DNA of 62,865 nucleotides, the filler included, from Aduncisulcus paluster (taxonomy: Eukaryota): the NCBI GenBank assembly GCA_024181965.1. It is 8 parts of 8 records of this genome, joined end to end, with 100 filler letters (N's around TTAATTAATTAA, not from the genome) between each part and the next. Parts side by side here need not be neighbours in the genome. Positions count along the whole stretch, not along the records: positions 31,563 to 42,308 come from BQXS01010953.1; 7 more parts are not named here. One strand, written 5' to 3'. Every line of letters begins with the position of its first letter. The first letter of the stretch is position 1. Shown in pieces: positions 3,638-56,748 of the stretch. The position numbers and the translations under genes are program-made. The notes under the pieces were generated by a model. That model searched no databases and had not been told where the DNA came from. It saw nothing but the letters and a program-made list of their open reading frames with translations.

Positions 3638-4626
3638 AATATACAAAAATAATACCGTGAATAGTAGAAATAAAATATTTTTGTGAATATAATTAAGTGA
3701 TTTAAAGTACAATACAACGGTTCTTTTTCCATCAAGACAAGGTTGAGAAATATCCCAATTTTCAACTTGAAAATTACAAAAATTGCTCTCAGGAATATTT
3801 CTTTATTTTTTTAAAACTATTAATTCTTCGTTCAATGAGAACCAGAGTCTGGATTCACCCTGGAAGGATCCCGGAAGGTTTACAAGTCATATATATATAC
3901 ATTATATCTGATAATCATTGCTTTAAAACATTATGGGCTTAAATATGAGGAAAATAAGTTATATCAAACTTCTGAGGCCTTAGGCGGATTCCGCCTGGCG
4001 GAATCTGAAAGGTTCGTGAACCAGAATCAATTCTTATTGATCGGCACCATAGATTCTTCGGAAAATCCCCCACTTAAAACCCCCCTCATCCTGATACTTC
4101 AGAAAACCAAGGGTATCCCTGCTCCATCAAGAATTAAAGGAAAAATATCATATTGAAGGCTCTTTTCATAAAATATTCGAGTCCTAAAAAGTAGGATCGA
4201 GCTTCTCACTGAAAATAATAACGATACAGTGGAGTGGAATAGTCCATTACAAATGAAAAAAGAAATGGACAATAACATGAGATATATATGTGTAGATGAA
4301 TCCAACAACAAAGAATGCTGTTTTAGGAGCCCTCAACATATTTGGAAAGACAGTTTCAAGTGCGGAAAAAGTTTCATCAACATTCCCTTGTTTTTGAAAG
4401 GTAAATAGACCTTGAAGCACAGAAAACCATTGATATTCTGAATCTACATTAATAATAATGATTTAATAGTTTCAGATAGTGGCAAAATAAGCCAATTTGG
4501 AATTTCCAAATTGGAAATACTGTATTCCGAATACATTTGAGTCAAAACTGGAAAGTTTCCAGAATGTGTCATTCTCATATTGTTTTATTATACATTGGTT
4601 TTCGTCAAAAAATGCATGAATCAGTT

Positions 4627-8664: not shown

Positions 8665-9399
8665 TTGTACAACTTAATATCAAATAACGAAAAAAGGTAT
8701 TAATGCAAGAAATATAAAAGCTTAATTTTAAATGTGATTTCTTTTGGTAACGAGTGGTTGCAATAATAATTTACAACGCAAAAATAGACAGAAAAAGAGC
8801 TAATTTGCCACCAAATTAAATAGTAATGCTAACACAAAGGAAGAATAGCAAATAACAAAAGTTAGTTAACTAATGTCGACCCAAAACAGCGAACGTGGGA
8901 ATCTGGACAATTCGGATTATTCGAGAAAAAAATAGATATCTTCAAACAGAACATTCCATATTTTGCACAATATGGAATTGTTATTTATTATTCAAACTTT
9001 ACTAAGTTTGTTTCTACCTTCAAAAAAGAGACACGGAGAAAAAAAATCACGTCTGAATCCGAAGTCCAAAATACCAAAATAAACGAAGAAATATTTTATT
9101 AATATGATAGTATGATCCATGCAATAAAGAAAAACAATACTTGCATGCCTGGTATATTGTCTTGTCATCACCAAAGAAAATTTCAAACAAAAAAAAAGCC
9201 GATAACAGACGAACAAAAAGTAAAAATTAATATGATATGAATCATGGTTCCAGTTTTATCGAAAAATTCGTTAAGCATGATAAATTCCACTGGAAAGTCC
9301 TGCGAAGCTGAGCTTGCCAAGCTGATAGCCTCAACTTGAGGCTATTCGCGGCTAAAAGAATAAATTCTTAAAATATTATAATCTAATCAGATTAAAAAT

Positions 9400-14116: not shown

Positions 14117-14614
14117 TCTCCTCTCCTAAAAATAATCCTGATCCAAAAACCATAATAATATATCCATTTGGCTGAGAGATGGATGATATGAGGTTTATTG
14201 AAACTCTTATTAACAATTTGTTCCACGAATTTTCGAAAGTTTCAATTTGAAACTCAAAGTTTGAAATTATTTTCAATCGGTTCCATTCTCATTTGATATA
14301 TTATTATCCAGCATACATATAATGAAACTATGTTTGAATTCTTCTATTGTTTTTACAATATTCAAGGTATATGGGAAGTATGTGATATTTCCAATTTCTC
14401 GTTCCAATCTACGATTATAATATATTATCCAAGGAAGATTATTGCGTTTAGAGTGCAGGTTTATAATAAAATAGATAATTCAAAAGGCCTAACAGATTCC
14501 ATTGGGAATATTTTCGAAAATTCTCCAATTTTTTTGACCTAACATATTTTTCAATAATCTGTTCTAATCCATTTACATATATTTACTTCATCACATTGTT
14601 TATAAACTAGTTCT

Positions 14615-18190: not shown

Positions 18191-18687
18191 TTCAAGAAAA
18201 GATAGGCGTCAAAAGTACTGCCTTATTCCTATAAGGTGGAAAAATCCTAAAAATAGATTTGACTGAGATAATGTATGATCAAGGGTTTGAAATGAAATAT
18301 TATGTTTTAACAAATTATTCTTATTTACATTCGAAATAATATTTCGAAAACCTCTTCAAATTTGAAATTACGCTAACAACAAAATTCTGGACAATAATCC
18401 ACATTACCTTTATTTTTTTGTGTCTATGTTAATTTATCAATGTGCTTGATTGTAATATTGTTTAAATAGTTCATTTAATTTGATTCTACCCCATAATATT
18501 TGAATTTGAAAATTGCCAACGTTATGAGCTCTATTAAGATAAAAATATTTACCCTTTTTTAAAAATAACACTTGAAACTTAATAAAATCATTCTGCTATC
18601 AACATTTGATAAGGTGAAGCCCCTACTGTGAAATACTCACTTTGTTTTTTTCGAGCTAAGAGGCTTCATATTTCCAATAGATTGAAA

Positions 18688-19200: not shown

Positions 19201-19527
19201 AGATTTCTAGATCACGATAGTCACGAGAAAAATAATCAATATAAAATTTCTTCAATCAGATATGCATGGAGTATCTATGGATTTAGTTGTTTGGATTGTT
19301 CAATTTCAGTTAAAAGACTCAAATAAATTATTCTTCAATTTATCAAAATATAACTGATATTTCTCTGTGGATGAGATGCTCGATCCGGTAATATACACTG
19401 TATATTACCATGATGGCATCATGTAAATATAACATGATGTTTTCCTTGCCATATTCGAATTTATTTCTCTGATCTCTCTTGACTTTTCATATAATTCCAT
19501 TATATTTACGTTGTACATCGAATCAAT

Positions 19528-19839
19528 ATGTTAAGTTCTTCGTTTTGTTCCCTCCTAAAATCATTTGCCAATCCTCCGAATGTACAAGCTTTTTTCGACC
19601 AAATTGAATATAAAATTAAAGAAAAATATCCCAAAGCTCTTATAAATATCATCGATGAGACTCCTCAAGTTGGAACTACCTCTTGTGTTGGAAAATGGAT
19701 TACTGTGGAAGTGGATGATCCCACCCTCTTGAAACCAATGGATAGAATCAAAGCAAATCGCGGAATTATGCAACTTTTGAGTGATGATGTTGAATCTGGT
19801 GTCCTTCATGCTTTATCAGTCCAGGTCAATAAGAAATAG
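19528..19839 (+). CDS. BolA family protein with putative mitochondrion-related-organelle presequence
   Basis: IIDET...SC, RIKANRGIMQLLSDDVESGVLHALSVQ matches the BolA R.R.V...L..E...G.HAL pattern. N-terminus MLSSSFCSLLKSFA. Confidence 0.8.
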   Translation: MLSSSFCSLLKSFANPPNVQAFFDQIEYKIKEKYPKALINIIDETPQVGTTSCVGKWITVEVDDPTLLKPMDRIKANRGIMQLLSDDVESGVLHALSVQVNKK

Positions 19840-20357
19840 ATTCAACTCTACCCTCTACAATTACTTTGAAAGCTGCTTAGGCAAGAAAGCAAGATATGTT
19901 GATAAATCATTATATTGGGTCTGCATATTCTGTTAAAACGAGACGGACAGTAGGCTACTGTCAGTAGCTCCAGCCTACTATTAATATTAAATTATCTTGA
20001 ATAGATCTGACTAGCTGTCGCCCGCCCATAGTATTCCAACGATTTAATTGATTTTATCATATTAATTTCTTCGATAATTTGACAGCTGCCGTTGAATCTG
20101 TACAATATCAAAATAATAAATATTCTATTTAACAATTATAAGCTCTTTTTAATCTTTATTTGTGCTTTATTCCCATTTTATTCATTGGATTTCATTCCGA
20201 ATTGAAAGAAGTCCTTCCTTGAACGTTACCAGGTTTTTTTTTTATCGCCGTAACGTCGACAAAGCGGTTATTATTCCCTTTAAACCGAAAAATATCTGGT
20301 TCGAAAAACTATTTCTACCGTAATTCCCTGAGTTTTTCTCTGCTTAGACTTATCTCA

Positions 20358-25135: not shown

Positions 25136-26523
25136 GCAATCAAAAGCTCATATTCTTGAAGTCTTTTCTCATCTTTCCAAAGCGGCAAAGAGAGAGGAAT
25201 TCTTGGTTTCATCAAACGTAATTCTTGGTATACAATCCATAACTGGTAGAGCATGAAATCACTGTCACGAACAGCACTGCCACTGTGAGTACCTCCAATC
25301 ATACCCATAGATGAAGTCATACCCGAGGAAGAAGAGGAAGAGGAAGAGGAAGAGGAAGAGGAGGAGGAGGAGGAGGAGGAGGAGGAGGAGGAGCCAAGAC
25401 CAGACGAAGAGGATGTGGTCAAAGAAGCTGGTCTACGATTAGAAGGGGATAGTTGAGACGAACTACCCACCAAGGTAGAGGTACTCTTACCACCAAGGGT
25501 ATATAATCCACCGCCACTAACACTCCATTCTTGGACACTCCAAAATGCAGGAATTCCACAACTCATCATGGCACAGAAAACGACTCTAAGGTTGTATAAA
25601 TGTTCTTCTTGGGTCTCTGGAGCAAAGAAAATGGCACGGGTGTCGAGAGGGGTGTCGAGTGCGAGATCTCCAACAAATAGCATGTGTTGGAGCGAGTGAA
25701 TAACACAAAACAAGTGAGTGCCACTGATAAAGTCCCTCCAAAGATCAATGGGAGTTGGATCATTGGGATATACTGCGGAAGAAGGTGGATGGGACGCACT
25801 GTGGGATGGAGAAGCCGGATGGAGTTGGCTTGTTGTTGGAGAGAGAGAGTGAATCGGTGAGGAAATAGATGTAGTCATGGAATTGGTGAGAACTCTCTGT
25901 CTGGTCTCAAGAGTCTGGGATTCGGATGATTGACCCTCGGTAACACCGGTTCTATTATGAGAATATAAAAGAGATCGACCATAATGCTGTAAAATGGAAT
26001 CATACCACAGTAACATTTCTCTACAGCGCATTTTAACTTCTCTCATAATAAACGCATCAAAAATTTCATTAACAAGACGCAGGGCAGCATCAGAATTTGT
26101 TCCGGCAACAAGATCATTTGCGGTTGGCATGTTTCGAGCACTTACAGCCTCACGCCATACAGTGGAAATAGCCATCTCCAAATTTTTCATTCTAGAATGC
26201 CTACTCTTTGGTTTTTTTTCATATCCAAGAAAAGAATTACGGGGATTTATCTTTTGAAGGATTCTAATGAGATATAGACCATCTTTGAATTCTCGGGCAA
26301 TAGTTTCAGGAGTTACCCGAGGTCCGCAATCCAAAGCTTCAACCCAACGGCATAAATGTATAATTCTTTGTTTTGCTTCATTGAAAATATTTTAAGAAAG
26401 AGTGACAGGAAACGAAAAATGACGATTCAAGATTTAGAAATATATTAGAAAATTGGAATGATATACGTGCTTAAAAAATCGAAAAAACATACTTAATTTC
26501 TTACGACCTCTTCTAACAGGCAT
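24578..26523 (-). CDS. Calponin-homology (CH) domain protein with poly-Ser tract and E/R-rich charged helix; probable intron 26376-26492; 3' end unreliable
   Basis: LCRWVEAL...REFKDGLYLIRILQKI...RMKNLEMA is a CH-domain pattern. Exon 1 (ATG 26523, MPVRRGRKKL) with a GTATGT donor at 26492 splices in frame to the AG at 26376; that acceptor is less certain. Confidence 0.75.
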
Positions 26524-32355: not shown

Positions 32356-32645
32356 CACGCTTCAACAAGTTGTTCACCTTGATTATCATAATCAAGACAT
32401 GATGTCTTCGGGTTTCACGGCTAATGGAAACTATCCAAACTTGAAGTTTTTATATTGGGTGTGATGCTTACTCTACCCATGGATCTATAAATAGAACCAG
32501 TGAGAATCATCATATAAACTTTTATGGACTTATCAGGTGAGATTCTCCATTGGAGTTGAAATGTTTCTCACACACAAAAACCTGTTTATTCGTTTGATCT
32601 ATTTTATTTCATTTTTGTCCTTGACTATCACTTCATTTTTCACAG

Positions 32646-32646
32646 T

Positions 32647-32701
<55 letters not shown>

Positions 32702-32703
32702 TT
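32646..32703. repeat. (ATTT)n microsatellite abutting the ZW10-like stop
   Basis: About 14 perfect TTTA/ATTT units. Confidence 0.95.
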
Positions 32704-35700: not shown

Positions 35701-38210
35701 GAAGAAGAAGAAGAAGAGGAAGAAGAAGAGGAAGAGGCCGAAAGATCTCCATCTCTTTTATGGATTATTTCTCCTGATCCTCTTTCTCGGAGTCCTGATA
35801 TTACCGTTTCAGATGGTTCAGATGTTTTAATTCCACCATTTGCAGCCGTTGATGCAGTAGGTATTTCTTGAGTCGATAGTTTAGAACTTCTTGACGGAAC
35901 TTCTACATAATCTCTATCAGCTCCAATATTCGATCTATTTTTAGAATGTTCTGAGATAGAAGAAGACGAGGAAGAAGAAGAGGAAGAAGAAGAAGAGGAT
36001 ATAATACTTTCCTGGACAAATTGTTCAATCTTAGTCGTTTCTCTTAATAAATCAATAATATTAATCGTGTTTTCGTCTTTTTCTCCTTTCATAACTGTTT
36101 TCATCAAGGAGACTCTAGAAACGCTAAGAGGAAATTGTTTTAACATTCGTAAATTCAACCTTTCAAGCGCACTAATTGCACCGCACATGACTATAATTAG
36201 ACACATGCTATAATTAGATGTCATTGACTTGATTAAGGCTTCATCAACACGAATAAAATAACGAGATACGATTGTTTTCATGACAGATACATCATATGAA
36301 TGATATACTGATATACTATCGGACGACTGTTTCTTCTTCTCTTTCTCTGCCTCATCTCTTGTTTCTCTTTCTTTTTTGTTACTATTAACATTTGTTTCAT
36401 TATTAGGTAAGGTGGATAATACAAAGACGGTATCAAATATATAGGGAGATAATACATCAGTTCGTCCAAGGAAATAATCTCTCACGTGGTCAATAGTCGT
36501 CTCTGAGAGCTGTGTACACACTCCACGAGTAACTGTGCTATTATTAGGACATATCTTAATCAATGAAGCCAGTGTCAATGTCAGAGTACTCAATGAAAGC
36601 GAAGAAGAAAAGGAAGAAGAGGAGGAAGAAGAAGAGGAAGAGGAGGAAGAGGAGGAAGGGTGTTCTGAATAATGTTTTTGGTGTGCATATAGACCTTGAG
36701 ATCCTCTCCTTTTCCTTTTCTTGTTCAGTATAGTACAATGTTGATGTGACCATTGTTTCATCGTAGAGCACATGGAAGTCACCAATTTCATGGATATTTG
36801 ACGTATAACTGTTGATATCTCTACTTTAACTTCATTAGAAAATGGGATTGAGATGAGAGAACATGCTTTGAGGAATTCAGGGATCAGAGTCACAGGCAAT
36901 AATTGTAAAGGGAACTGAAGAAGAGGAGGAGGAGGAGGAGGAGAAGGGATAGTGGGTTGTCCTGATGTGGAAGTGGAGGATCTAATTATAGACATTGAGA
37001 AAGAAGAAGAGAGAGCAGTATCTCCAATCAATTGAAAGAATGAACATAAATGGGACAATGACTTTTGGAATAGATNNNNNNNNNNNNNNNNNNNNATAGT
37101 ACAATGTTGATGTGACCATTGTTTCATCGTAGAGCACATGGAAGTCACCAATTTCATGGATATTTGACGTATAACTGTTGATATCTCTACTTTAACTTCA
37201 TTAGAAAATGGGATTGAGATGAGAGAACATGCTTTGAGGAATTCAGGGATCAGAGTCACAGGCAATAATTGTAAAGGGAACTGAAGAAGAGGAGGAGGAG
37301 GAGGAGAAGGGATAGTGGGTTGTCCTGATGTGGAAGTGGAGGATCTAATTATAGACATTGAGAAAGAAGAAGAGAGAGCAGTATCTCCAATCAATTGAAA
37401 GAATGAACATAAATGGGACAATGACTTTTGGAATAGATTCCTGACTTTCTCATCAAAATATTTTTGGGACGATATCTCAATATGACTCATGGACTGTAGT
37501 GTCATGTCAGAAGAACAAGAAGAACAAGAAGATGAAGAAGAAGAAGAAGAAGGGGAAGAAGAAGAAGGGGAAGGGGAAGAAGAAACTTTTGAAGGCGATT
37601 TGATAAGGAATTTATGTTTATCTTCTTCATATATTTCATGGATTCGGGCGTATGCTCGACCAATGGTGCTTCTCGCAGCAACAAAAGTACTAAATGCAGA
37701 AGAACACTCAACACAAAATTGAATGAGGGAAATAAGCTCATTTGAGGCCAAATATTCATTATGTTGAGTGGATGTAGATATCAAGGGAATTGTTAACAGA
37801 GTTTCTGACGGTTTCGAATCAAGCAGAGCAGATAATGCCTTTTCCGCCTGTAATACAGGGCTTAGCTTGACAAATAATCTTTCTAATTCTTCTTTTTTAT
37901 CTAGAGATACGATTTGTTCCACAATTTCATCATATAAATCTCCTATTTCCTGGGAAGAGGAGAAGGTATGTTTATCAGAATGTATATAAGAAGATTTCAA
38001 TATATCAAGCCGCTTACTCAGTTGTACCGCATACTTACTTGAATATTCATTGTCTATCACCTGAATTACAGATTCAAGAAGCTCAGAACGTTGTTTCTAA
38101 ATGACATGAAGAGTATAAATAATGAATCGATAAGGAAAACATATAAATTATCAACAAAAACATACTAATAAAAAATCCAATTCTTCGAATTGGATCTTAG
38201 AGTTCTCCAT
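32703..38210 (-). CDS. ZW10/Dsl1-like tethering protein, expanded by low-complexity inserts (~1690 aa corrected); intron 38097-38165
   Basis: The C-terminus VLSLGIPDISNSVASDM...PMWREISALQQCIWFLTLSFSDAFDHWKHGK...LCLSLFDESQQRDTAISKI resembles the ZW10 end (EDIS...SL.EI..RW..GK...LIRALF.....R..AL.KI). Exon 1 MENSKIQFEELDFLL (38210-38166) splices GTATGT...TTTAG in frame. Confidence 0.7.
34451..34571 (-). repeat. 15-nt coding tandem repeat, (KP[DS]SL)x8
   Basis: AGGCTTTAGACTATC and AGGCTTTAGACTACT units on the + strand. Confidence 0.95.
36730..37438. other. Assembly artefact: 346/343-bp duplicate across a 20-N gap, copies differ by one GGA
   Basis: 36730-37075 vs 37096-37438; the poly-Pro run is 6 vs 5 codons. 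Confidence 0.9.
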
Positions 38211-39515: not shown

Positions 39516-41073
39516 ATGTCAGGTAGTGAGCAGCTGGACTTTAGATTTTGCCAGGTATTTGGTGATACTTGTCCTGTAGAGGAAGCAAGTAATTGTGACA
39601 TCATCAGCGCCGTAAAGTTTGATAAAACTGGTCAATATTTGGCTGTTGGTGATAGGGGAGGAAGAGCAATCATATTTGAAAGGGCAGAATCTAAAAAGAA
39701 AAGCAAGTCACACTTTGTCGGTTATAAGTTCTTAATTGAATTTCAATCTCATGAACAAGAGTTTGATTACCTTCGTTCGTTAGAAGTTGATGAAAAGGTA
39801 TGTCTATTTTTTTTTATTAATTAACGTTTTGACCTCTTTTCTGTTGAGTTAGTCTCACTCATTGGTATTTCCCCATTTTGACAAATATCCACAAACACCT
39901 TTATTTTTAAAATATTATTAGATTAATGCAATTCATTGGTGGAATCCCCAAAACAAAGCTCAACTTCTTCTTTCTGCAAATGATAAAACCATCAAATTGT
40001 GGAAAATATTCCGCAGAAAAGTTGTAGAAGTCGGTAATTTAAACATTCCTAAGCCCGAAGGCCGAGTATTAGACATGGCTACTGCCAGACGCATTGCAAA
40101 TCCCGGTGATTTGCGTATCCCTCGTTTGCGGACGACTGAATTAATGCTTTCCGCCATTCGTAGACGTCAATATGCCAACATCCATTCTTATCACATCAAT
40201 TCCCTCTCTTTATCCGCTGATGGAGATGTATTCCTTTCTGCTGATGATTTGAGAATTTATATTTGGTCCTTGCATCATCACAAGGAAGTTTTCAACGTTT
40301 GTGACATTAAACCCGCCTGTATGGGTGATTTGAGTGAAGTTATCACCTGTGCCAAGTTCCACCCTCGTGACGGTGCTGTCATGTTCTATGGTTCTTCCAA
40401 AGGAGCCGTTAGAATGTGCGATATGAGATGCAGGGCCCTTTGTGACAAGCCAACGAAGGAGTATTATACTCCCCCCGTCGGTGGTGGCGTTAGTGAGATT
40501 GTTGCCAGCGTTGGAGATTTCCAAGTGAGTACGGATGGTCGTAACATTTATTCTCGTGATTATCTTGGTATTAAAATATGGGATGTTCGTAAGTCTGACC
40601 ACCCAGTCACCACTATTCCCATCTACAATGGTCTCCGAAGCAAACTTGATAGTCTGTATGAAAGCGAATTCTTGTTTGATCGATTCCATCTGGCGCTTGG
40701 TCCTCACAGTCGTTATCTTTTCACTGGATTCTATTCTGATCACTTCTTCTGTTATGACGGCCATGGAAAGTACGGATTCACTGCCCAAGCTTCAAGATCC
40801 GTCCTTGGAAGGAAAGTTCGTGAGAAAAAAGCCATTGAGTTGGCCAAGGCTGCTGCCAGCAACCCTCTTACTGGTGCCAGTATAAATGGAAAGCGTGTTC
40901 TTGATGGAGGCCAATACCTTGGGGATTTTGCCCCCGATCTATCTTACAAGAAAAAGATATCATTTCTGGACGTACATCCAACTGAAAATATTGTTGCACT
41001 AGCCACATTATGCAATTTGTATATATACACTGGTGTGAAGCCACAGGTTGGCTCGAGATCATCCAGAAAATGA
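39516..41073 (+). CDS. PP2A regulatory subunit B (B55/Cdc55), 477 aa; intron 39798-39921
   Basis: DIISAVKFDKTGQYLAVGDRGGR, EFQSHEQEFDYLRSLE.DEK|INAI, NDKTIKLWK, HSYHINSLS and SADDLRI. The 124-nt GTATGT...TTAG intron restores the frame. Confidence 0.97.
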
Positions 41074-41394
41074 AACTTTACAGTGACACTTATTTTCCCT
41101 TTTTGAAAAAGGCTTTTTCTATTATTTTTGGAATCCATCAGGTTTCAACATTTCAAACAGTAAAAATAATAATATTTACTATTTGTTTTATATGATAATT
41201 TATTACCAATTGTGTTGTCATCATGACAAGGGATATGATATCCCTGGGATCGAAATGGGCCATTTCTTGACACCACAGGTGAACAACTAATGTTTTTGAC
41301 CTTCACATAATTAAGTGCTCAATGGTGAACGTAATGGATATTTCTATTTTTGAATTACAATAAGATGTTGCATTTTTTTTGCAGATTAACTTCC

Positions 41395-41457
41395 GAAGTT
41401 CCAAATGCGGCCGGGGCGTCTTTATTACAAACAACAACAACAGAAGTTCCAAATGCG
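41395..41457 (+). mobile_element. Ultra-short insertion CGGCCGGGGCGTCT-TTATT-ACAA(ACA)n with 13-15 bp TSD GAAGTTCCAAATG(CG)
   Basis: Direct repeats at 41395-41409 and 41443-41457. A second family member lies at 54893-54953. Confidence 0.8.
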
Positions 41458-42408
41458 AGTCCCATCATGCGATCTATATGATATTGCAGCTGTAAAATGC
41501 AGCTCAATGAGCTGGAACTGGATTCATGGGAGCAATGGGTATGGGCGGTGGAATGATGGGCGGAATGGGATTCTAATCCAGAAGATTCAACTCTGTCTTA
41601 TTACACTTGGTTTCTAATGTGTCAATGTTTTAGCTTATGTATTCAATCCAATCAAAGCCTTTGATTCTTGTGTCCGTAATCATCGTGACGATAGTTCAAC
41701 ACAAAAATGGATTTTGAAGATCAAATATCTTAGGGGGGTTTGCCAGATCGACTCGATCTGATCGAGGTACGGAGAATATTTGAAATCCTTTTAATAACTA
41801 ATTTGAAAATGTATACAGTATTACTGTCTTTCATGTGTTATATAAATGCATGTGATAGATGATCTACTGACTATCAATGATATAATATCATCGTTTTGGT
41901 ACGCCATATACCTGGTTTAATAACCCAGTGGTTTGTAACGGAAGCAACAGTGTGTTTTTGATTTCTCTTCTCTCCAGCATTTCTCCCCTTTCTTTGTTTT
42001 GGAGATTTATTTATAGGACGACTTTGTACGCCAATTTTCTAATCGTTTTGAATGCTATAAATCCCAATTCGTGACATTCTTCTGTATTTTGGTTTTCATT
42101 GGATTCCATTTTAAATAAGTTAGATCCCAAGCACTGCCTGATTGCCGCCTCAGGCGCTGGCCAATCGATCATCCAGTTCCATTAATTACTATTGCTGTTA
42201 CGATAATTTTTTTTTGCTGTCAGTAATACTGGCCCAGTAACACCAGTGGTGATATATGATGATAGACGATGTACATTGAATGCACATTCCATGGATGCTG
42301 AGTTGTCANNNNNNNNNNNNNNNNNNNNNNNNNNNNNNNNNNNNNNNNNNNNTTAATTAATTAANNNNNNNNNNNNNNNNNNNNNNNNNNNNNNNNNNNN
42401 NNNNNNNN

Positions 42409-45400
42409 CGATTCCACCTCAGCTTCTCTACATTCTTTGCCGTCTGCTGCCGATGTTCCTTTCGGCTCATCTTCGGTGTCTTCATCGGTGTCGAGCATTG
42501 ATCATCACTCGCGTGCATCTATTGATGGCCGTGACCAAGAGTTTGGGGGCCCTCAGCTATCTTATGGACACTGTACCAAACAACATCACTCACAACCCTC
42601 TTTGATACCTAACTCCTCTTCCTCTTCCTCCTCGTCTTCTGTTCCCCAGCGTTTTGAACAGGCGAGTTTAGCTTCTGGTGGAGACTATCTCATGCGATCC
42701 TCACCCTCTTTCCGGTACTTTCCTCACTCCCAACACTCTTCTGCTTTCTACAACTCTTCTGCTTCCTCCCAAACAGGTGTCTACCTTGCCCGACACTCCT
42801 CGATGCCTCTTCGTGGAGAACATTCGATGTTCACGTCTGCCCCTGTTCTCATGTCTACTCATATGGAGCCCTCATTCTCTCCTTCTTCATCAGACCAGCA
42901 GCATCAACATCACCAGCAACATCCCAACTATTCCCAGCATGTCTCTACATCCTCACATGGATCCCAGCCCTCACAGCATCACTATCACCCCCCTGTCTCA
43001 TCATCTCACGTCCATCACTCGACCGTGCAGCATCAACACCTCATCCAAGGATCACGTTCTAATCCTCGACTTGCTTTCTATTCTTCTGATTCTGTATTGT
43101 ATCCAAGCTCTGCTCCTTTGCAACCTTCCCTGTATCCTCAGGGGTTCGTCCCATCAGGGTCTGCCGGACAGGGCTTCGGCTATCCACCGGCGGCAACCGG
43201 TCATCAACACCAGCCTCGGATTGGAAGAAGTCCTAGTGGTGGCAGTATTGGTAGTATGCATCATAGCTCCTCCCGATCGTCTCCTCACTCCTCAGGTCAT
43301 TCATCCACTCACTCCTCCGGTCATTCTTCCTTGGCTACCTCTCCACACCCTCTCTTTCGTCCTCAGTCCCAAGGGTACTACCCTGTTCCACTTGGACAGG
43401 AGCCATCGGTGTCAGGGTCACAGATCCAGACAACCGGTTCCTCTTCCTCTACCTCAGTAGTTAGTAGTGACGGTAATCAATTTGAGGCCCCTCGTGATGG
43501 TGGTGTTCCATTGAGTCCCAAGAACTCAGTCATGAGTCCCAAGAACTCAGTCATGAGTCCATCGTCGCATTCTCTTCCATCTAGTGCAACTGAAGGAGCA
43601 TCTTGGACCGCTTCATCCTCATCTTCTCTGTCTGGACATCGATGCGGTGCCAATTCTTACATGTGCTCTTCTGCTTCTGCTGCTGGCAATACATCGAGTG
43701 GACGTATGATCCATTCTCAGCATCAACAAGCATCCTCTTATCCCACGTGTTTCTCCGATGGATCTGTCCAAAGTCCTGTCGTTGGTAACATCAGTGATAG
43801 TCAACAACGACAACATCGTGTGAGAGGAAACAGTAGTAGAGAAGGTCTTCATGGATTGAGAGGAACGCAAGGACAGATGTCATCACAATACGCTCAGTCA
43901 CAGACAGAGACACAGACACAGACATCTGGTGGTTTATCTCAGAAAACATCTCTTGAGCTTCCTGAGCATCCTCTTCCACCATTCCTGACAAATATTATCT
44001 TTGAACTTGTATTTTCTCTTGCCCCCATGAAATTGCTTGACCATATCTGCTCTTCTCATCAGAACAAACATATCATTTCGTGTGTCCGTGTGTGTGTCGG
44101 TACAGAGTTGGGACTGATTACTTGGGATGGAATTACTGCACAACGATCTATTGGCACTTCATGTCGGCACCCTTCCTCTTCATCCTATTCTCATCAACGT
44201 CCTCCTTCTCTCCACTCTCATCGCCAGCACCAGTTACCAAGTGGTCCATCGATGTCAAGCATAGCCTCGGTGATCTCTAACTTCTCTGATGAAGAGTCAT
44301 ATTCTGACGATCATTCCCTGACTGAATCTGGTGTCACTCAGAGCGATCTTCTCCTTTTACAATCAAAAGAAGCTCTATTCCAAGAGTGGATGCGTCACCG
44401 TGAAAAGCAGAGAAAAGAAGAGAGAGAAAGGAACAAACACTTTTCTTCTGGCCTGTGTTCCATCTCCTCTTCTCTTCCTCCTTTACCTTTATCCAAACTG
44501 CCCCACTCTCTTGCCCTGTGTGATTATCTCTTGAAAATTCTCATTCAGGGCGTTGAGAGAGAAGAGAAGGACGCTGAGATTACAGAGGAACAAAGGAAAA
44601 GAGGGTTTCAACGAAGGAAATTACAGGAAACATCTGAAGATCCAAGGTGGTGGGCTCAAATTGTAACGAACGAATCTTCTTCCACGGCATTCAAGATGTA
44701 TTTTTCAAAGATATTCTCATCTTCCGCATCAAGTTTCTTTATCACTGAGATTGCTCCTTTCTCATCTTCTTCCGTGTGTACTCATTTTGTATGTTCTGCT
44801 TTTCGTATGTGTAATTCTTTCCTCAAGATTGCTCATTTGGCACATTCGATGCACAGTCTTCGTTCCCTCATCCAACAAATATCTGACCCTCAAGACATTG
44901 AGATTATCGCAGGGTGTGTTCAGCGTGTAGTTCTTTCTCTTGAGGAAGAGAGACTAGGGAAGTCTGGAAGTTCTTCTTCTTCTTCTTCTTCTTCTTGTTC
45001 TACTACTTCTTGTCCTGGTGGCATGTCAATCGATACAAAGGGAGGAAATGGGAGGAGGAGAAGGAAATCGGATGGAACTGGTGGAGCATTCGATATGTGT
45101 TGTCACCCAAGTAGTATTCTGTATAAGGGAGATCACGATACCGTTTCAAGTACTTCTCTTCTCTCTCCTTCCTCCTATGGCTCTTCTTCTTCCTTTGGCT
45201 CACCTGCATCTGCACCGACTTCTTCTTCTTCCGTTATGGCTGGCACTGATATTACTTTCACTTCCTATTCCTGCACTGATTCCTTTCTTCCGCCTTGTTC
45301 CTCAGAGTCTGTGTCTGATAGTCTCACATCTGCATCATCATTCCATCATTCCTGTCCAACCTCCTTTATGAGAAATGACAATATTTGTCGGACGTGTGGG

Positions 45401-46855
45401 TGTTCCATTTCCAGACTATTGGCTTCCCTTGAGCTTCCATTTAATCCACCGTCATCTGTTGATTTCCTGTGTGCTCTCTCATCTTCAACATCGGGGTATG
45501 TCTTTATTCACGCGATAACTGACATTATTCCTTATGAACGTTGGATGCGAGTTCTCGGTGTGTTTTGCATTAATAACATACGCCAGTCAAATACTCAGAT
45601 GTGCACAAACATTCTTCGAGAATGTGTAGGGGAAGAGATGAAACGGAGGTTACACTACCAAAGGTTGCACTACCTCAAGGAAAAAGACCATTCTGCGACT
45701 CCTTCTCAAGATAGTAGTTCTGCAGCAACAGGCAGCGGAACAACAACGGAAGCATCTTGTTCCTCAGGTGTCGACAAAGATCATGGGATTGTTGGCATGA
45801 AGTGTTCTCCTGCTTCGCATCATGAGTCATTGGAGGGTGCAGTAGGAGGTCAACAACAACAATTTGCTATAGAGCAGTGTCCATTGCCGACATTCTTTTT
45901 TGAAGCTCTATGTCATGCATTTTCAAGTGATATCGTGTTTCTTTGCAAAGGAAAGAAGAGTAACTATGTGGTTCAGAGTGTCATCAAAGAAGTTGGGAGT
46001 ATAATTATGGATATTCCTTGTAGAGTCGTTTCTGATTTTGTCTCAAACATGGCTATCAAAACAATTCCTTCCTCTTATTCTCTCGGGGGTGGTGGTGATC
46101 GTTCTTTCTATGGTTTTCAGCCAAGATTGCCTCTTCCTTACACAATACTTTTGTCTTTTTTCACCTACATCACTGGATGTGTCGATGAAACAGCCCATGT
46201 AGCTGTTTATAACAGTGTATTGGAGACATTTGGGTTTAATTATGAGAGTTTTACATCTATGATGGGTTCTATTCCTTCTAAATTCTGTTCATCTCAATGT
46301 AGCTCCAAACGTGGAAGAAAACCAGATGATCTTTATAGGGATTCTGAGGTCTTTCTTACGAAAACGATGCTTGATTCTTCAGCTTCTTCAGCTTCTCCAA
46401 GTTATTGTGAAGGCAAAAGTAATTGTATAAGTTGCCAAAAACATGAAAAGGTTGAGGCTCTGTGCTACCCGGCTGGTATATCGTGTTTGTTGAACTCATT
46501 TATTGATTCATTTGTTGAGTTGAGCTGTCATAGTACTTCTTCCCACGTGTGTGAATGTCTTGTTCAGAAATGTGGTCCAAGTGTCCAGACAGTAGTTGTT
46601 GGAGGTCTGACAAAACCATGTGCTCGTAACGTCTTACATCGGCATTTTTCTGGACGTTTCAGTCGCTTATTCGCAGTTGCATACAGTGAGTTTGGTAACT
46701 ATGTTATTAACAAACTCATTCAGATTGTTCCTATTGATTTGGTGAGACTCATGGCTGCTGTATTGTTCATTGATTGTATTGGGAAACCTTTATGTACTCA
46801 ATCCAGTATTGTATTCGTGGTGAATGCACTCGAAAGACGGTTTAAGAGGCATTAA
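42409..46855 (+). CDS. Pumilio/PUF-family RNA-binding protein with long Ser/His/Gln-rich N-terminus; 5' end cut by contig
   Basis: C-terminal Puf-like repeats LCKGKKSNYVVQSVI, LSCHSTSSHVCECLV and VAYSEFGNYVINKLI. The frame is open from the contig start. Confidence 0.75.
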
Positions 46856-47699
46856 ATAATATATAAATATATATTATTACATTCTATTTTTAGGTTTTAA
46901 TATTTAGTATATTCTTTTCTAAATATATATTCTTATTCATATTCCCTCATTCTCCCTATTCTCGTATATTTTTAATAATAGTTTCCTCAAAATCTCTAAT
47001 TTTATCAAATTGAATATTATATATTTTTTTTTCAAACAAAAACATTACGGACAGTTACCTTTCCTCTTCTTTCTTTCCTTCTTTTATTTAAACAATTTTG
47101 TTTTTTTTTTAATTTTCATTTTATTTATTATTGATTTAATAATACTTTTATTGCTATTTTTTATTGCCCTTTTTTTTAGTTATAAATTTTTCTTTTATAG
47201 TACAATATTCATCTCAAATTGATTTCCTATTTTTTTAATTATTAATAATTATTATTATTACTACGCAACAGACCCCACACGTCCATCAAACATAATAATC
47301 GTCTGATAATGGAGCTCTCTAATTCGTTAGGTTTATTTATTTTTTATTATTTTTTTTTTTATTTATTTTTTTTAGATCTCTCTCCCCTCCTCTTATCTCT
47401 CAGATGTTTCTCAACTTGACTATTTTTAGATTATGGACCCTTTTTTTATTATTCCTTTATTTCTCCGATATTATTATTATCTAATATCACATATCTCAGC
47501 TATAGTATCCATAGCTATAGCATAATTTTTCAACTGTTTTGTTTGTCTTGAAATTGTCAGAATTAGAAAATATAAATGTGATATCAGAAACAATAATTGT
47601 TTGGCCATCATTCAAAATAATATTTTGGAATAATGAATTATTACACAATCTATTTAGTTGAAAATTTTGTTTTTGTTTTTCGGAATTTCTTATCATTGA

Positions 47700-50151: not shown

Positions 50152-50408
50152 TGCTCAGCATGGAGCACTTCAATTACCTCCGTGCTGAGCAGGTCACGAT
50201 GCTCGGTCTCTCTCTGCCAGAGCCGTGCTCAGGTAGGGAGATGATGGAGAGATGTGTTCGTCGACATAGGGAGGCCCTGGATTCATTATTCCCTCGATTA
50301 ATGTTGAGGCCAATCTATGAACAGCAGTGTTGTTTTGGACAGTATCTTCTTTTCGAGGGGAAGAGTATATGCGATTTATTCGTTTCCTGTCCCAAATAGC
50401 ACATGGCT
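50152..50408 (+). mobile_element. End of a GC-richer repeat element sharing a 105-nt structured terminus with the SelD 3' insertion
   Basis: 50303-50408 is the reverse complement of 4643-4747. A 14-bp hairpin TGCTCAGCATGGAG/CTCCGTGCTGAGCA spans 50152-50191 after poly-T. A 79-aa ORF lies at 50160-50399. Confidence 0.55.
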
Positions 50409-54620: not shown

Positions 54621-54892
54621 ACTTCCTATTGTCAATCGCCGCCATGATCTAGTATATTATTGTAAAACTATGAAATAATTAATTTTGTTTTTCTCGTTTC
54701 CTGTTGAATTATGTTTTATTTTCTTTTTTTCTCATGATTATCCAGTGTCAAGTGGGATCCATAACATCATTTCATTCTACTGTATCTGTTATTCTATTTT
54801 CAAATCTGAATTTGGAATATCTTTTCTACCACATATATTCATGACCTCTTCATTGAATGAAGCTTCATTCGAATTATTTTCGGAATAAACTC

Positions 54893-54953: not shown

Positions 54954-56748
54954 ATTTCACTATTTTCCAATGTTTTGCATCATGCAAACTGCATGGGGTT
55001 CGATGACTCTCAATCCTTTTGAAATCATTCAAATATCTCGATAATATCTGAACATATTCTTTTATATTTGTCTTCAAAAATGGTTTGGAGATATTGATGG
55101 CGCTGCAAATGCTGATTCGAACTTCCGTTTGAAACCAACGTCGGTTGAAATGAAATAAATGGTATATTCTTGCCCAATAATCAGTTGAATTTAAAAATAT
55201 GATATTTATTAAAGTTGTATTATATGTGTTAATGATTAGCTCGAAACATCGATTTGTTCTATCCAGTAGTGAGGGTACGATGGAGTGGAAAGTCAAAAAT
55301 GATATGAAATAACTCTTCAGATTGAACCCAATGGTGCCCATACCATCCAATATGATCAATGATTACATCCAAGAAACAAACTCTGCCAGGACTGATCCAA
55401 TGGACCAGAACTCCCATAGTGCAGACTTTCTTCAAGTATATTGTCAAGATATATCGGATAATACCAAAATACACGTCATGATGATTATCACTACTAAACA
55501 GTATATATAAGATTGGTACAGAGAGATGATTTACAGATTCTTGATGGCATCAATCATTCCAATCAATTCTACGAGTTGTTTATATAGCTGCTCTCGTTGT
55601 GAAAGAAGTTTTTCTGNNNNNNNNNNNNNNNNNNNNNNNNNNNNNNNNNNNNNNNNNNNNTTAATTAATTAANNNNNNNNNNNNNNNNNNNNNNNNNNNN
55701 NNNNNNNNNNNNNNNNGACATAAATCTCCTGAAACTTCAAGAAAAATAGGATCCTTCCTTTGTTTAATCTGGATAAGAAATTGGACGAGTTAACACAATA
55801 TTATAAGTATTTTATGATATAATCCAACGTTATTATATCAATAAAAAGAAATGGTTGGAATTATCAATCCATCCACAAAGAATCCACAGAACCTGGTGAA
55901 CATACAGTTTTGGAGAATAAACCCATGATAATGCAAAATATTCAACTTTTTATCGGTATATATACTTATAATTCCAAATATTACGAAGAGTAATCACGGA
56001 GGCTAAGAAGAAATACTGTAATGTTAGCAAAATCGTGATGTGTTTTGTGTATCTTGATACTTGATGAGATGATGAAACATCCATGTCGTTAATAAAATAT
56101 ACACATTCAATTTATGACAGATCTAAATATTTCTCATTGCTCGATACTTCCAGAAGTTCTTTCTATTCATCTCTCGCTTCGTACACCTTTTTTGTCAACA
56201 TCACTTCCGTCTTATATGCGATGATCTGAGAGTTTATTGTATATTTATTCCGAGACAATGTTTACTTCGATGTTTGTCCTGTTGTTTCAGGGTCTAAAAC
56301 ATCAATTCATTCGTTCCGTCCATTCTGTCCATTCCGTCCATTTTATGGTATATTAATTGATGACACGCGTGTGAAGATCTGTGATATTTTTCAGTACTCA
56401 ACAAACACAACTCATCCAACACACTGCCATACTTGAAGGTGTTATCATCTCATCCAAGATAGATTGATATCTCTCTCTTCTTGTCGAATCTAATGATCTT
56501 ATTCCAATGGATCACTCATGAAGGTATTATTATGCACAACATATCGTGTATATCTATCGTTTCTAATCCCTATTTGAATAACTTTTTCAAGGATTGAATC
56601 CTTATTACTGGACTCGAGGTGCATATTCTGATAGATTGAAAATAAAAACTCCATTCCTTCCCCAAATTTATCAAGTCCCTTTCCATCATTTTTATTTCTC
56701 ACAATTATTTCTCCCTCAAAATGTATTTTACTTTTTTTGGTACAACTT

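What the first reader, a model, noticed from the sequence alone, without database searches (positions are those of the whole stretch)
41215..42240. Dense field of perfect palindromes with a single central base, a pattern recurring in intergenic DNA on several contigs
Seen: TTGTCAT-c-ATGACAA (41215-29), AGGGATAT-g-ATATCCCT (41229-45), ATCCC-t-GGGAT (41240-50) and GAAATGG-g-CCATTTC (41252-66) form one chain. Also CAGCTCA-a-TGAGCTG (41500-14), AATCAAAG-c-CTTTGATT (41650-66), ATCGT-g-ACGAT (41682-92), CAGATCGA-c-TCGATCTG (41744-60), ACAGTA-t-TACTGT (41815-27), ATGATAT-a-ATATCAT (41878-92) and CAGTA-a-TACTG overlapping TACTGG-c-CCAGTA (42221-39). The arms (5-11 bp across the window) share no sequence, so this looks like a process rather than a repeat family. 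A 1-nt spacer does not suit an RNA hairpin loop, and the centre is often C/G despite AT-rich DNA. Established: hAT transposases and RAG leave hairpins on flanking DNA that open into palindromic P-nucleotide footprints, and hAT TSDs are 8 bp. Inference: these spacers record repeated hairpin-mediated excision/repair (or snap-back synthesis) at hot spots, so intergenic DNA may be built by an undescribed inverted-duplication mechanism.
Basis: partly seen in the sequence, partly recalled or inferred. Interest (0 to 1): 0.8.

Follow-up and report, generated by a model that had tools for sequence, protein, structure and literature searches.

The report
Odd 15-bp palindromes fill noncoding DNA
The noncoding DNA of this free-living protist is peppered with unrelated, perfect 15-base palindromes built around one central base, most likely scars of a DNA polymerase that makes short U-turns during repair or replication.

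Summary
The window is 8 joined contigs of Aduncisulcus paluster.

- **Excess:** in 16.8 kb of noncoding DNA, perfect inverted repeats with exactly one central base and arms of 7 or more occur 34 times. Shuffles give 3.1, with a maximum of 11 in 200.
- **Specificity:** spacers 0, 2, 4 and 5 are at chance, spacer 3 is slightly raised, and 45 kb of coding DNA shows no excess.
- **Geometry:** arm length peaks at 7, and pairing drops to background at position 8.
- **Centre base:** G or C in 18 of 34, against a 30% background.
- **Chaining:** a neighbour's centre often falls on the last arm base of a palindrome, or 7 bases beyond it.
- **Not an artefact:** the library used no whole-genome amplification, and the arms share no sequence.

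Best reading: mutational scars of iterated U-turn (snap-back or strand-switch) DNA synthesis in about 7-nt runs, in a lineage lacking classical end joining.

The transposon-footprint idea is poorly supported. No 8-bp duplication signal, no transposase and no even-axis palindromes were found. I found no prior description.

The parts
41098..41119 (.). Overlapping pair of 15-bp odd palindromes. Centres are at 41105 and 41112, 7 apart. They lie 25-45 nt after the stop codon of the PP2A B55 gene.
41215..41266 (.). Chain of four odd palindromes with centres at 41222 (arm 7), 41237 (arm 8), 41245 (arm 5) and 41259 (arm 7). The first two share one base. The third pivots on the last base of the second.
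41500..41514 (.). Isolated 15-bp odd palindrome, arm 7, centre 41507
41650..41666 (.). Isolated odd palindrome, arm 8, centre 41658
41744..41766 (.). Overlapping pair, centres 41752 (arm 8) and 41759 (arm 7), 7 apart
41871..41891 (.). Pair with centres at 41877 (arm 5) and 41884 (arm 7), 7 apart.
41388..41400 (.). Short odd palindrome (arm 6). Palindromes of this size are individually near chance level.
41815..41827 (.). Short odd palindrome (arm 6), individually near chance level
42221..42239 (.). Two overlapping short odd palindromes (arms 5 and 6), individually near chance level
3982..4005 (.). Overlapping pair on another contig, centres 3989 (arm 7) and 3996 (arm 9), 7 apart. The layout is forward, reverse, forward.
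4492..4562 (.). Chain of odd palindromes with centres at 4503 (arm 11), 4510 (arm 8), 4521 (arm 5), 4528 (arm 7), 4541 (arm 5) and 4555 (arm 7). It lies about 300 nt downstream of the selenophosphate-synthetase-like gene.
3757..3775 (.). Odd palindrome, arm 9. It falls inside the crude ORF mask. By my reading of the sequence it lies upstream of the likely start codon of the ABC-transporter gene; this start was not verified.
9311..9345 (.). Two adjacent odd palindromes (arm 6 and arm 10), about 60-90 nt downstream of a gene end
14238..14254 (.). Odd palindrome, arm 8
18330..18348 (.). Odd palindrome, arm 9, between the divergent eIF5A and eIF4E genes
19387..19423 (.). Two odd palindromes (arms 11 and 7) that share exactly one base
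19946..19968 (.). Overlapping pair, centres 19954 (arm 8) and 19961 (arm 7), 7 apart
32378..32408 (.). Two odd palindromes (arms 9 and 7) with centres 14 apart, about 300 nt downstream of a 1797-codon ORF
47588..47627 (.). Two odd palindromes (arm 7 each) in an A+T-rich intergenic stretch. Five A/T-only arm-7 palindromes, centred at 6612, 16173, 47250, 48533 and 49758, are the ones most likely to be chance.
54848..54870 (.). Odd palindrome (arm 7, centre 54855) followed directly by a third copy of the arm. This makes a spacer-0 palindrome of arm 8 at 54855-54870, the one clear reflection with an even axis.
56589..56603 (.). Odd palindrome, arm 7, just upstream of the DUF92 membrane-protein ORF

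Best explanation
These are mutational scars, not functional elements or a repeat family.

Proposed mechanism: a DNA polymerase working at a break or a stalled 3' end stops and leaves one unpaired pivot base. It then turns round and copies about 7 nucleotides of the sequence it has just passed, in reverse complement. This is snap-back or strand-switch synthesis, and it creates a 7+1+7 palindrome. The polymerase can turn again on the last base it copied, which gives overlapping palindromes with centres 7 apart. It can also add a few new bases and turn again, which gives chains.

Such insertions of 7-8 nt, or multiples of that, would survive in noncoding DNA and be purged from coding DNA as frameshifts. 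They then decay by point mutation.

The most likely setting is polymerase-theta-like alternative end joining, or a related low-processivity template-switching polymerase, because metamonads lack Ku and DNA-PKcs.

Shown here: the excess, the restriction to a spacer of exactly 1, the 7-nt arm mode with a sharp edge, the G/C-rich centre, the pivot rule, the restriction to noncoding DNA, and decay by scattered mismatches.

Inferred: that one arm is a copy inserted next to the other, the direction of synthesis, the setting (break repair or replication), and the enzyme.
For: 1. **Excess at spacer 1 only.** Noncoding DNA with strict spacer counting and arms of 7 or more gives the following:
   - spacer 1: 34 against 3.1 expected (maximum 11 in 200 shuffles)
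   - spacer 0: 5 against 2.5
   - spacer 2: 2 against 2.4
   - spacer 3: 6 against 2.1
   - spacer 4: 3 against 2.1
   - spacer 5: 1 against 2.2

   A fixed one-base axis points to the geometry of a chemical or enzymatic step rather than to selection for a fold.
2. **No excess in coding DNA.** Across 45,289 coding bases, spacer 1 with arms of 7 or more gives 6 against 4.3. This fits frame-breaking insertions being purged.
3. **Sharp arm length.** Arm counts for lengths 5 to 11 are 41, 12, 22, 6, 3, 1 and 2. Shuffles give 24.5, 7.1, 2.1, 0.7, 0.2, 0.06 and 0.03. Among the 34 centres, pairing at positions 8 to 14 is 0.35, 0.41, 0.32, 0.32, 0.21, 0.21 and 0.26, against a background of 0.278. The counts at arms 8 to 11 are about what chance extension of a fixed 7-nt run would give.
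4. **Pivot rule.** The centre of a neighbouring palindrome (arm 5 or more) falls exactly on the last arm base of an anchor (arm 7 or more) in 8 rows, which are 7 distinct pairs. It falls 7 bases beyond in 6 rows. It falls at offsets +1, +2 or +4 in none. Five pairs have centres exactly 7 apart, and 12 of 33 neighbour distances are 27 or less. Serial switching of this kind is what Pol theta does in vitro, oscillating between untemplated addition, snap-back and trans copying; 7- and 8-nt tracts are given as examples (PMC4912351, passages read).
5. **Centre base.** G or C in 18 of 34 against 30% background, p = 0.005, while the arms match background. This fits an untemplated or otherwise special pivot base.
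6. **Decay.** Centres with 6 of 7 arm positions paired number 73 against 48.5 (sd 7.4). The mismatches are spread evenly over the seven positions: 12, 10, 11, 8, 10, 11, 11. That is the pattern expected from neutral point-mutation decay of once-perfect copies.
7. **Literature on the setting.**
   - Metamonads lack Ku70-Ku80 and DNA-PKcs, and alternative end joining is present in some free-living members (PMC8516963, section 8 read).
   - Pol theta is poorly processive in A+T-rich, microhomology-poor DNA and leaves direct and inverted templated insertions of 3-30 bp (PMC7165422, passages read).
   - Yeast makes very short foldback inverted insertions at breaks, most about 5-34 bp (PMC11724301, abstract and section 15 read).
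   - Template switching is known to create perfect inverted repeats in a single event (10.1101/038380 and 10.1101/2021.04.15.439925, search listing and abstracts only).
Against: - No ancestral or alternative allele was available. So it is not shown that any palindrome arose by insertion, which arm is the copy, or whether flanking bases were deleted.
- Known snap-back and foldback events use pre-existing inverted microhomologies and loops of variable size. One yeast case has a 41-nt loop, and the SD-MMEJ work uses primer repeats. None of the passages I read reports a fixed one-base axis or a fixed 7-nt stride, so the geometry here is unexplained by the closest known enzymes.
- Whether A. paluster encodes a Pol theta homologue was not tested. 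The organism is not mentioned in the main text of PMC8516963 (0 occurrences), and that paper's supplementary gene table could not be opened.
- Most palindromes lie 30-340 nt from a gene's 3' end. That could also fit a transcript-related function or a transcription-coupled process.
- The sample is small: 16.8 kb of noncoding DNA defined by a crude ORF mask. One of the 8 contigs has none.
- The excess at arm 5 (41 against 24.5) is larger than simple decay of 7-nt arms predicts. Run length is therefore not strictly fixed.
Confidence: 0.55

Rival explanations
1. Transposon excision footprints. Cut-and-paste transposases of the hAT, Mutator or Transib/RAG type leave covalently closed hairpins on the flanking DNA. 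Opening a hairpin away from its tip gives palindromic P nucleotides. Repeated insertion and excision at hot spots would then pile up palindromes.
For: - Flanking-DNA hairpins are established for Hermes (hAT), Transib, RAG1 and Muta1. They are thought to be opened by host enzymes such as Artemis and joined by NHEJ (PMC5499845, discussion passages read).
- Metamonads lack DNA-PKcs and Ku, so hairpins might be opened far from the tip and give long P tracts.
- From memory, not checked here: hAT transposase nicks one base into the flank, which would give a hairpin with one unpaired base and so an odd axis.
- 7+1 equals the 8-bp hAT target duplication.
- A chemically fixed one-base offset would explain why only spacer 1 is enriched.
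Against: - Direct repeats show no peak at offset 8 (16, 15 and 13 at offsets 7, 8 and 9, with similar values out to 20). Flanks of isolated palindromes show no shifted direct copy of the arm.
- RAG/Transib-type chemistry predicts an even axis, which is not enriched (5 against 2.5).
- 0 of 29 ORFs in the window carry a transposase domain, and no repeated element abuts the palindromes.
- A sharp 7-nt arm has no basis in hairpin opening.
- Pivoting of a second palindrome on the last base of the first, seen in 7 pairs, is not expected from two independent flank hairpins.
- Arm positions next to the centre show no strong base preference, whereas a hAT target preference is recalled from memory.
- About 2 perfect copies per kb of noncoding DNA would need very heavy transposon traffic.
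Confidence: 0.12
2. Selected structural elements. The palindromes would be kept because they form small hairpins in transcripts (3'-end formation, stability) or cruciforms or symmetric protein sites in DNA. The Mimivirus palindromes that mark polyadenylation sites without any sequence consensus, recalled from memory, would be the analogue.
For: - Most lie in regions that include a gene's 3' flank, typically 30-340 nt from the stop codon. The pair at 41098-41119 starts 25 nt after a stop codon.
- As RNA each can fold into a stem of arm-minus-one base pairs with a 3-nt loop, with energies of -2.5 to -8.6 kcal/mol for single units.
- Only 1 of 34 lies in the roughly 1 kb of divergent-promoter spacers.
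Against: - Selection for hairpins should accept loops of 3 to 5 nt and both parities. Strict spacers 3, 4 and 5 with arms of 6 or more give 13, 12 and 9 against about 7 expected, while spacer 1 gives 46 against 10.2.
- Many intergenic regions have none, and others have chains of 4 to 6.
- Folds of the clusters are only weakly better than shuffles; the four-palindrome chain has z = -0.57.
- One-mismatch copies are about as common as perfect ones, with mismatches spread evenly. That looks like neutral decay.
- There is no sequence consensus for a protein site.
Confidence: 0.1
3. The same U-turn copying, but arising during normal replication rather than during double-strand-break repair. Examples are a strand switch onto a displaced flap or onto the opposite template at a fork.
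For: - Replication template switching is an accepted source of reverse-complement copies and perfect stems (abstracts only).
- A switch between two separate strands needs no loop, so a one-base pivot is sterically easier than in an intramolecular snap-back (inference).
- The 7-nt stride is close to the unit length of eukaryotic primase products, which I recall as 7-10 nt. This is numerology only.
Against: - Described template-switch mutations jump tens of bases and have no fixed length.
- Nothing in the window marks replication features.
- The data here cannot separate this from the break-repair version.
Confidence: 0.2
4. Technical artefact of amplification, library preparation or assembly.
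For: - Whole-genome amplification and enzymatic fragmentation are known to create palindromic chimeras and errors at palindrome centres (PMC6941819, passages read; PMC6218980, abstract only).
- The assembly is a fragmented short-read draft with an N50 of 4.6 kb.
Against: - The DNA was extracted from culture, sheared by sonication, and prepared with the Kapa HyperPrep kit, with no whole-genome amplification step described (PMC9933649, main text read).
- The palindromes are only 15-23 bp, so they sit well inside single 150-base reads (read length) and need no assembly join. Their absence from coding DNA is my main reason for rejecting an assembly artefact.
- An artefact would not spare 45 kb of coding DNA on the same contigs.
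- The read-level artefacts described are low-frequency variants, not consensus sequence.
Confidence: 0.03

Closest known systems
Polymerase-theta-mediated end joining scars: locally templated insertions, snap-back or SD-MMEJ synthesis
   Same: - Short reverse-complement copies of the immediately adjacent sequence.
- Several switches within one event.
- Favoured in A+T-rich, microhomology-poor DNA.
- Expected to dominate where classical NHEJ is missing.
   Different: - Known events have variable loops, use pre-existing primer repeats, and range from 3 to 30 bp.
- Here the axis is always one base and the run is about 7 nt, with pivots on the last copied base.
- The density is about 2 perfect copies per kb of noncoding DNA.
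- No enzyme has been identified in this organism.
Short template-switch mutations in replication (Loytynoja and Goldman model) and quasi-palindrome correction
   Same: A one-step origin of perfect inverted repeats by briefly copying the complementary or nascent strand (abstracts only).
   Different: - Those events jump to templates some distance away and replace sequence.
- No parity rule or fixed length has been reported for them.
- An outgroup is needed to call them, and none was available here.
Foldback inverted insertions at yeast double-strand breaks (limited by RPA and Rad27)
   Same: Very short (most about 5-34 bp) inverted duplications of break-proximal sequence made by foldback priming.
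   Different: - The yeast events use a natural 10-bp inverted microhomology with a 41-nt loop, and they need Pol delta plus NHEJ or alt-EJ.
- Here no loop is present, and NHEJ is reported absent from the lineage.
P-nucleotide footprints of hAT, Transib/RAG and Mutator excision
   Same: Palindromic copies of flanking bases produced from a hairpin intermediate.
   Different: - No target-site duplication remnants and no transposase.
- The arm is fixed at 7 rather than a few bases.
- Chained pivots and no even-axis class.
Palindromic 3'-end signals without sequence consensus (Mimivirus 'hairpin rule'; recalled, not looked up)
   Same: Unrelated palindromes in intergenic DNA near gene 3' ends.
   Different: From memory, those have much longer arms, real loops, and about one copy per gene end. 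Here the palindromes are 15 bp with a one-base axis, and occur in clusters or not at all.

Membership tests
hAT / Transib-RAG / Mutator excision footprint | Remnants of the target-site duplication (8 bp for hAT) as direct repeats flanking the palindromic bases | tested here: not met
   Direct repeats of 7 nt or more show no peak at offset 8. Offsets 7, 8 and 9 give 16, 15 and 13, and offsets 7-20 are all raised about 3- to 5-fold. No shifted direct copy of the arm appears in the flanks.
hAT / Transib-RAG / Mutator excision footprint | Symmetry axis set by the hairpin chemistry. It lies between two bases for RAG/Transib. It lies on a base for hAT, if the first nick is one base into the flank (recalled). 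| tested here: inconclusive
   The even axis is not enriched (5 against 2.5), while the odd axis is enriched 11-fold. This excludes the RAG/Transib type. It is compatible with the recalled hAT geometry, which I could not confirm in the papers read.
hAT / Transib-RAG / Mutator excision footprint | Presence of the transposon family (transposase genes, MITEs) in the genome | tested here: inconclusive
   0 of 29 window ORFs carry a transposase domain, and there are no repeated elements next to the palindromes. Only 62 kb of a 29.4-Mb assembly was visible.
Pol-theta / alt-EJ templated insertion (snap-back) | The inserted tract is a reverse-complement copy of sequence within a few bases of the junction | tested here: met
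   Each right arm is the exact reverse complement of the 7 or more bases immediately to the left of a single central base. That one arm was inserted is an inference.
Pol-theta / alt-EJ templated insertion (snap-back) | Serial switching within one event (complex inserts) | tested here: met
   There are 7 distinct pairs with the second centre on the last base of the first arm, and 6 pairs at 7 beyond. Chains of 4 to 6 occur at 4492-4562 and 41215-41266.
Pol-theta / alt-EJ templated insertion (snap-back) | Priming from pre-existing inverted microhomology with a loop of variable size | tested here: not met
   Only a spacer of exactly 1 is enriched. Spacers 2 to 9 are at or near chance.
Pol-theta / alt-EJ templated insertion (snap-back) | A POLQ-type polymerase encoded by the organism, and microhomology or deletion at the far junction | not testable with these tools
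   No eukaryotic genome collection was available and no ancestral allele. The supplementary gene table of PMC8516963 was closed, and A. paluster is absent from its main text.
Replication template-switch mutation | A cluster of changes, relative to an outgroup, explained by one reverse-complement copy | not testable with these tools
   No related genome or second haplotype could be fetched.
Selected RNA hairpin or terminator element | Tolerance of loop size and parity, and compensatory or wobble changes in stems | tested here: not met
   Loops of 3 to 5 nt show little or no excess. One-mismatch copies have mismatches evenly spread over the arm. Wobble bias could not be scored because transcript strands are unknown.
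Amplification or library artefact | Whole-genome amplification or enzymatic fragmentation used, with artefacts blind to coding status | tested here: not met
   Sonication and Kapa HyperPrep were used, with no whole-genome amplification step described. No excess appears in 45 kb of coding DNA on the same contigs.

The most novel reading that the evidence does not exclude
Noncoding DNA of this lineage is continually extended by an undescribed polymerase activity. It makes U-turns with a fixed geometry: one unpaired pivot base, then a counted run of about 7 nucleotides, repeatable on the last copied base. This behaves like a counting primase-polymerase or an unusual end-joining polymerase. It would be a dominant source of insertions in a eukaryote that lacks classical end joining.

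A rough steady-state estimate, which is my inference, gives about one such event per 40 point substitutions per noncoding site.
Probability: 0.3. Interest if true: 0.8.

Novelty: new variant of a known kind. Interest (0 to 1): 0.68.

Why it matters
Most mutational signatures of break repair are known only from model organisms and cancer genomes. Here a natural genome carries a very clean, dense and geometrically strict signature: a one-base axis, 7-nt runs and chained pivots. It is readable directly from sequence.

If it reflects repair in the absence of Ku and DNA-PKcs, it offers three things:
- a handle on how early-branching anaerobic protists mend breaks;
- a candidate enzyme activity with a counting step;
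- a concrete example of noncoding DNA growing by templated inverted insertions, which create ready-made hairpins and symmetric sites that evolution could later use.

It also warns annotators that small palindromes near gene ends in such genomes need not be regulatory.

Tried and rejected
- **Repeat family or MITE.** Self-BLAST of the window found 11 noncoding repeat pairs, none involving the palindromes. Arm 6-mers are no more frequent nearby than control words (46 against 41 with sd 17).
- **Known RNAs.** There are 0 Rfam matches at gathering thresholds and 0 tRNAs in the window.
- **A hidden gene in the finding's block.** The longest stop-to-stop frames in 41074-42308 are 80 and 75 codons.
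- **Mirror-repeat control for low complexity.** Uninformative. Mirror repeats are inflated at every spacer (68, 95 and 52 against about 5), which I attribute to homopolymer and microsatellite runs without testing it. I relied on dinucleotide and local shuffles instead.
- **Target-site-duplication signal.** None found at offset 8.
- **Introns.** Only one intron could be placed, in the PP2A B55 gene at about 39822-39921. That is too little to say whether introns carry the palindromes.
- **Literature.**
  - Searches for odd or odd-length palindromes, Aduncisulcus with palindromes and Fornicata with palindromes found no description of this pattern.
  - The genome announcement does not mention palindromes.
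  - The Kipferlia paper has no occurrence of palindrome, inverted repeat or hairpin.
  - The Carpediemonas paper has no occurrence of palindrome or hairpin.
- **Related genomes.** Whether relatives or other A. paluster contigs show the pattern stayed unchecked.
Full report
**What the window is.** The 62,865-base window is eight contigs joined by N-runs and a 12-base spacer, with three internal 20-N scaffold gaps. The finding lies in the last 1.2 kb of the contig at 31563-42308. The ORF just upstream (39922-41073) is 100% identical to the PP2A regulatory subunit B of Aduncisulcus paluster, recorded on a contig of 10,746 bases, which is the length of this contig. A. paluster is a free-living fornicate (Metamonada). 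According to the genome announcement, whose main text I read:
- DNA was extracted from gradient-purified cultured cells, sonicated and prepared with the Kapa HyperPrep kit.
- It was sequenced as 150-base pairs on HiSeqX and assembled with MaSuRCA.
- No whole-genome amplification is described.
- The assembly is 29.4 Mb in 25,863 contigs, with an N50 of 4.6 kb and 39% G+C.

The window's ORFs are ordinary eukaryotic genes. Pfam hits 11 of 29 ORFs: ABC transporter, AIR-synthase-like, ubiquitin, MRJP, Utp11, eIF5A, eIF4E, CH domain, PARG, aminotransferase and DUF92. None is a transposase.

**Checking the observation.** 11 of the 12 listed palindromes are exact at the stated coordinates, and one is shifted by a base (true position 41877-41891). 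Within 41215-42240 there are 8 one-base-spacer palindromes with arms of 7 or more, against 0.11 in dinucleotide shuffles (maximum 2 of 1000). With arms of 5 or more there are 17 against 1.5.

**How specific the signal is.** I split the window with a crude mask: stop-to-stop ORFs of 120 codons or more, chosen greedily by length. This gave 45,289 coding and 16,816 noncoding bases. I then counted spacers strictly, so that a spacer-1 palindrome is not also counted at spacers 3, 5 and so on.

| Spacer | Observed in noncoding DNA, arms of 7 or more | Expected from 200 shuffles |
|---|---|---|
| 0 | 5 | 2.5 |
| 1 | 34 | 3.1 (maximum 11) |
| 2 | 2 | 2.4 |
| 3 | 6 | 2.1 |
| 4 | 3 | 2.1 |
| 5 | 1 | 2.2 |

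Spacers 6 to 9 are also at chance. My first, non-strict count had suggested that all odd spacers were enriched. That was nested counting, and the real signal is spacer 1. The small surplus at spacer 3 is what mutation of the innermost pair would give. Coding DNA shows nothing at any spacer; spacer 1 gives 6 against 4.3. Shuffling within 30- or 60-base chunks gives 2.9 and 2.5, so patchy base composition is not the cause. Five of the 34 have A/T-only arms and are the most likely chance members. Per contig the counts are 6, 4, 5, 0, 12, 5, 1 and 1, against 0.16-0.59 expected.

**Anatomy.**
- *Arm length.* There is a mode at 7. Counts for arms 5 to 11 are 41, 12, 22, 6, 3, 1 and 2, against shuffle means of 24.5, 7.1, 2.1, 0.7, 0.2, 0.06 and 0.03.
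- *Edge.* For the 34 centres, the paired fraction at positions 8 to 14 is 0.35, 0.41, 0.32, 0.32, 0.21, 0.21 and 0.26, against a background of 0.278. The edge is sharp, and the longer arms are about what chance extension of a 7-base run gives. The basic unit is therefore 7+1+7 = 15 bp.
- *Centre.* G 10, C 8, A 8, T 8. That is 18 of 34 G or C against 30.3% background (p = 0.005). The arms are 31% G+C.
- *Base preference.* No position in or beside the arms shows a strong preference.
- *Origin of the arms.* They are not copied from elsewhere nearby and form no family.
- *Decay.* Copies with 6 of 7 positions paired number 73 against 48.5 (sd 7.4). Their mismatches are spread evenly over positions 1-7. 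This is the picture of once-perfect copies decaying by point mutation, with about as many one-hit as perfect copies.
- *Coverage.* Perfect copies cover 502 of 16,816 noncoding bases (3.0%). Copies with arms of 5 or more cover 6.3%. In the finding's block the figures are 138 and 237 of 1,235 bases.

**Chaining.** The palindromes are not scattered. 12 of 33 distances between neighbouring centres are 27 or less, and five are exactly 7. I measured where a neighbour's centre falls relative to the end of an anchor's arm. There are two sharp peaks:
- Offset 0, where the neighbour pivots on the last base of the arm: 8 rows, 7 distinct pairs.
- Offset 7: 6 pairs.
- Offsets +1, +2 and +4: none.

In the pairs with centres 7 apart, the third segment continues through the complement of the first centre. 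It is therefore a second reflection, not a direct re-copy. One case, at 54848-54870, shows a reflection with no pivot base. In two adjacent pairs the second palindrome shares exactly one base with the end of the first (19387-19423; 41215-41245), and a third pair (32378-32408) overlaps by three bases.

**Where they lie.** The palindromes occur both upstream and downstream of genes, but mostly in spacers that include a 3' flank, 30-340 nt from the stop codon. The roughly 1 kb of divergent-promoter spacers has one. Several spacers of 500-800 bp have none. The finding's block has no frame longer than 80 codons, no Rfam match and no tRNA.

**Interpretation.** Three things point to a mechanical origin rather than selection for a fold or a protein site: a symmetry axis fixed on one base, a counted arm, and pivots on the last copied base.
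- As RNA, each unit could fold as a stem one pair shorter than the arm, with a 3-nt loop, at -2.5 to -8.6 kcal/mol. But selection for hairpins would accept 3- to 5-nt loops, and these show little or no excess.
- An artefact is very unlikely. No amplification was used, the units are far shorter than a read, and coding DNA on the same contigs is spared. The palindrome-centred errors reported for enzymatic fragmentation are low-frequency read variants from a different kit.

The best reading is a templated inverted insertion. A 3' end stops, one base is left unpaired, about 7 bases are copied back in reverse complement, and the process can repeat. This matches in kind the following:
- The inverted templated insertions of polymerase-theta end joining: 3-30 bp, favoured in A+T-rich, microhomology-poor DNA by aborted low-processivity synthesis.
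- Pol theta's in vitro oscillation between untemplated addition, snap-back and trans copying, where 7- and 8-nt tracts are among the examples given.
- SD-MMEJ snap-back in flies.
- Very short foldback inversions at yeast breaks.
- Replication template-switch mutations (abstracts only).

The lineage context fits as well. Metamonads are reported to lack Ku70-Ku80 and DNA-PKcs, with alternative end joining present in some free-living members.

It does not match any of these in detail. The fixed one-base axis and the 7-nt stride appear in none of the passages I read. The enzyme is unknown, and I could not test whether the organism has a POLQ homologue.

Hairpins on flanking DNA are real for hAT, Transib, RAG1 and a MULE. 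A hAT-type one-base offset, which I recall but could not confirm, would give an odd axis. Loss of the Artemis/DNA-PKcs route could lengthen P tracts. Against this:
- there is no 8-bp duplication signal;
- there is no transposase or repeated element in the window;
- there is no even-axis class;
- hairpin opening gives no reason for a 7-base arm;
- the pivot rule is not expected from two independent flank hairpins.

I rate this mechanism at about 0.12.

**Rough rate (inference).** Suppose perfect copies are at a steady state between birth and loss by any of 14 arm substitutions. Then about 31 excess perfect copies in 16.8 kb imply roughly 0.026 events per site per unit of substitution rate. That is about one event per 40 substitutions, which would be a sizeable share of all insertions.

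**Limits.**
- Only 16.8 kb of noncoding DNA was available, and the coding mask is crude.
- I had no second allele, no outgroup, no reads and no related eukaryotic genomes.
- The literature library is partial. My searches found no description of this pattern, which is not proof that none exists.

Noticed in passing
window 4643-4747 and 50303-50408: A 106-base noncoding segment is repeated at 99% identity, in opposite orientation, on two different contigs. It has no Rfam match. It could be a small RNA gene or a mobile fragment.
   Followed up: partly
window 4628-4644 and 4819-4835: An exact 17-base motif occurs twice (0 expected). One copy lies just after the stop codon of the selenophosphate-synthetase-like gene, on the other strand. 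The other abuts the 106-base repeat. It may be a 3'-end signal or part of a larger repeat unit.
   Followed up: partly
window 41395-41409 and 41443-41457: An exact 15-base direct repeat, with copies 48 bases apart, lies inside the finding's intergenic block (0 expected). It is unrelated to the palindromes.
   Followed up: partly
window 11242-11261, 22783-22802, 37076-37095: The 20-N scaffold gaps are flanked by duplicated sequence; the same peptide stretch reads on both sides in the ORF translations. This suggests overlapping contig ends were scaffolded rather than merged.
   Followed up: no
window 39516-39821 and 39922-41070: The PP2A B55 gene is split by one intron of about 100 bases. The annotated 477-residue protein aligns in two pieces, 93% identity over the first 102 residues and 100% over the rest.
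   Followed up: partly
window 32650-32703: A long tetranucleotide microsatellite lies directly beyond the end of the 1797-codon low-complexity ORF on the minus strand.
   Followed up: no
window 19528-19839: A 103-codon ATG-to-stop ORF with no Pfam match sits between eIF4E and the leucine-rich-repeat gene. It contains no palindromes, while both of its flanks do, which hints that it is a real gene.
   Followed up: partly
window 24592-26391, 32706-38096 and 42410-46852: Very long intron-free ORFs are rich in serine runs and in Glu/Arg repeats. Apart from a CH domain in the first, they have no Pfam domain. They are typical low-complexity proteins of this genome.
   Followed up: no
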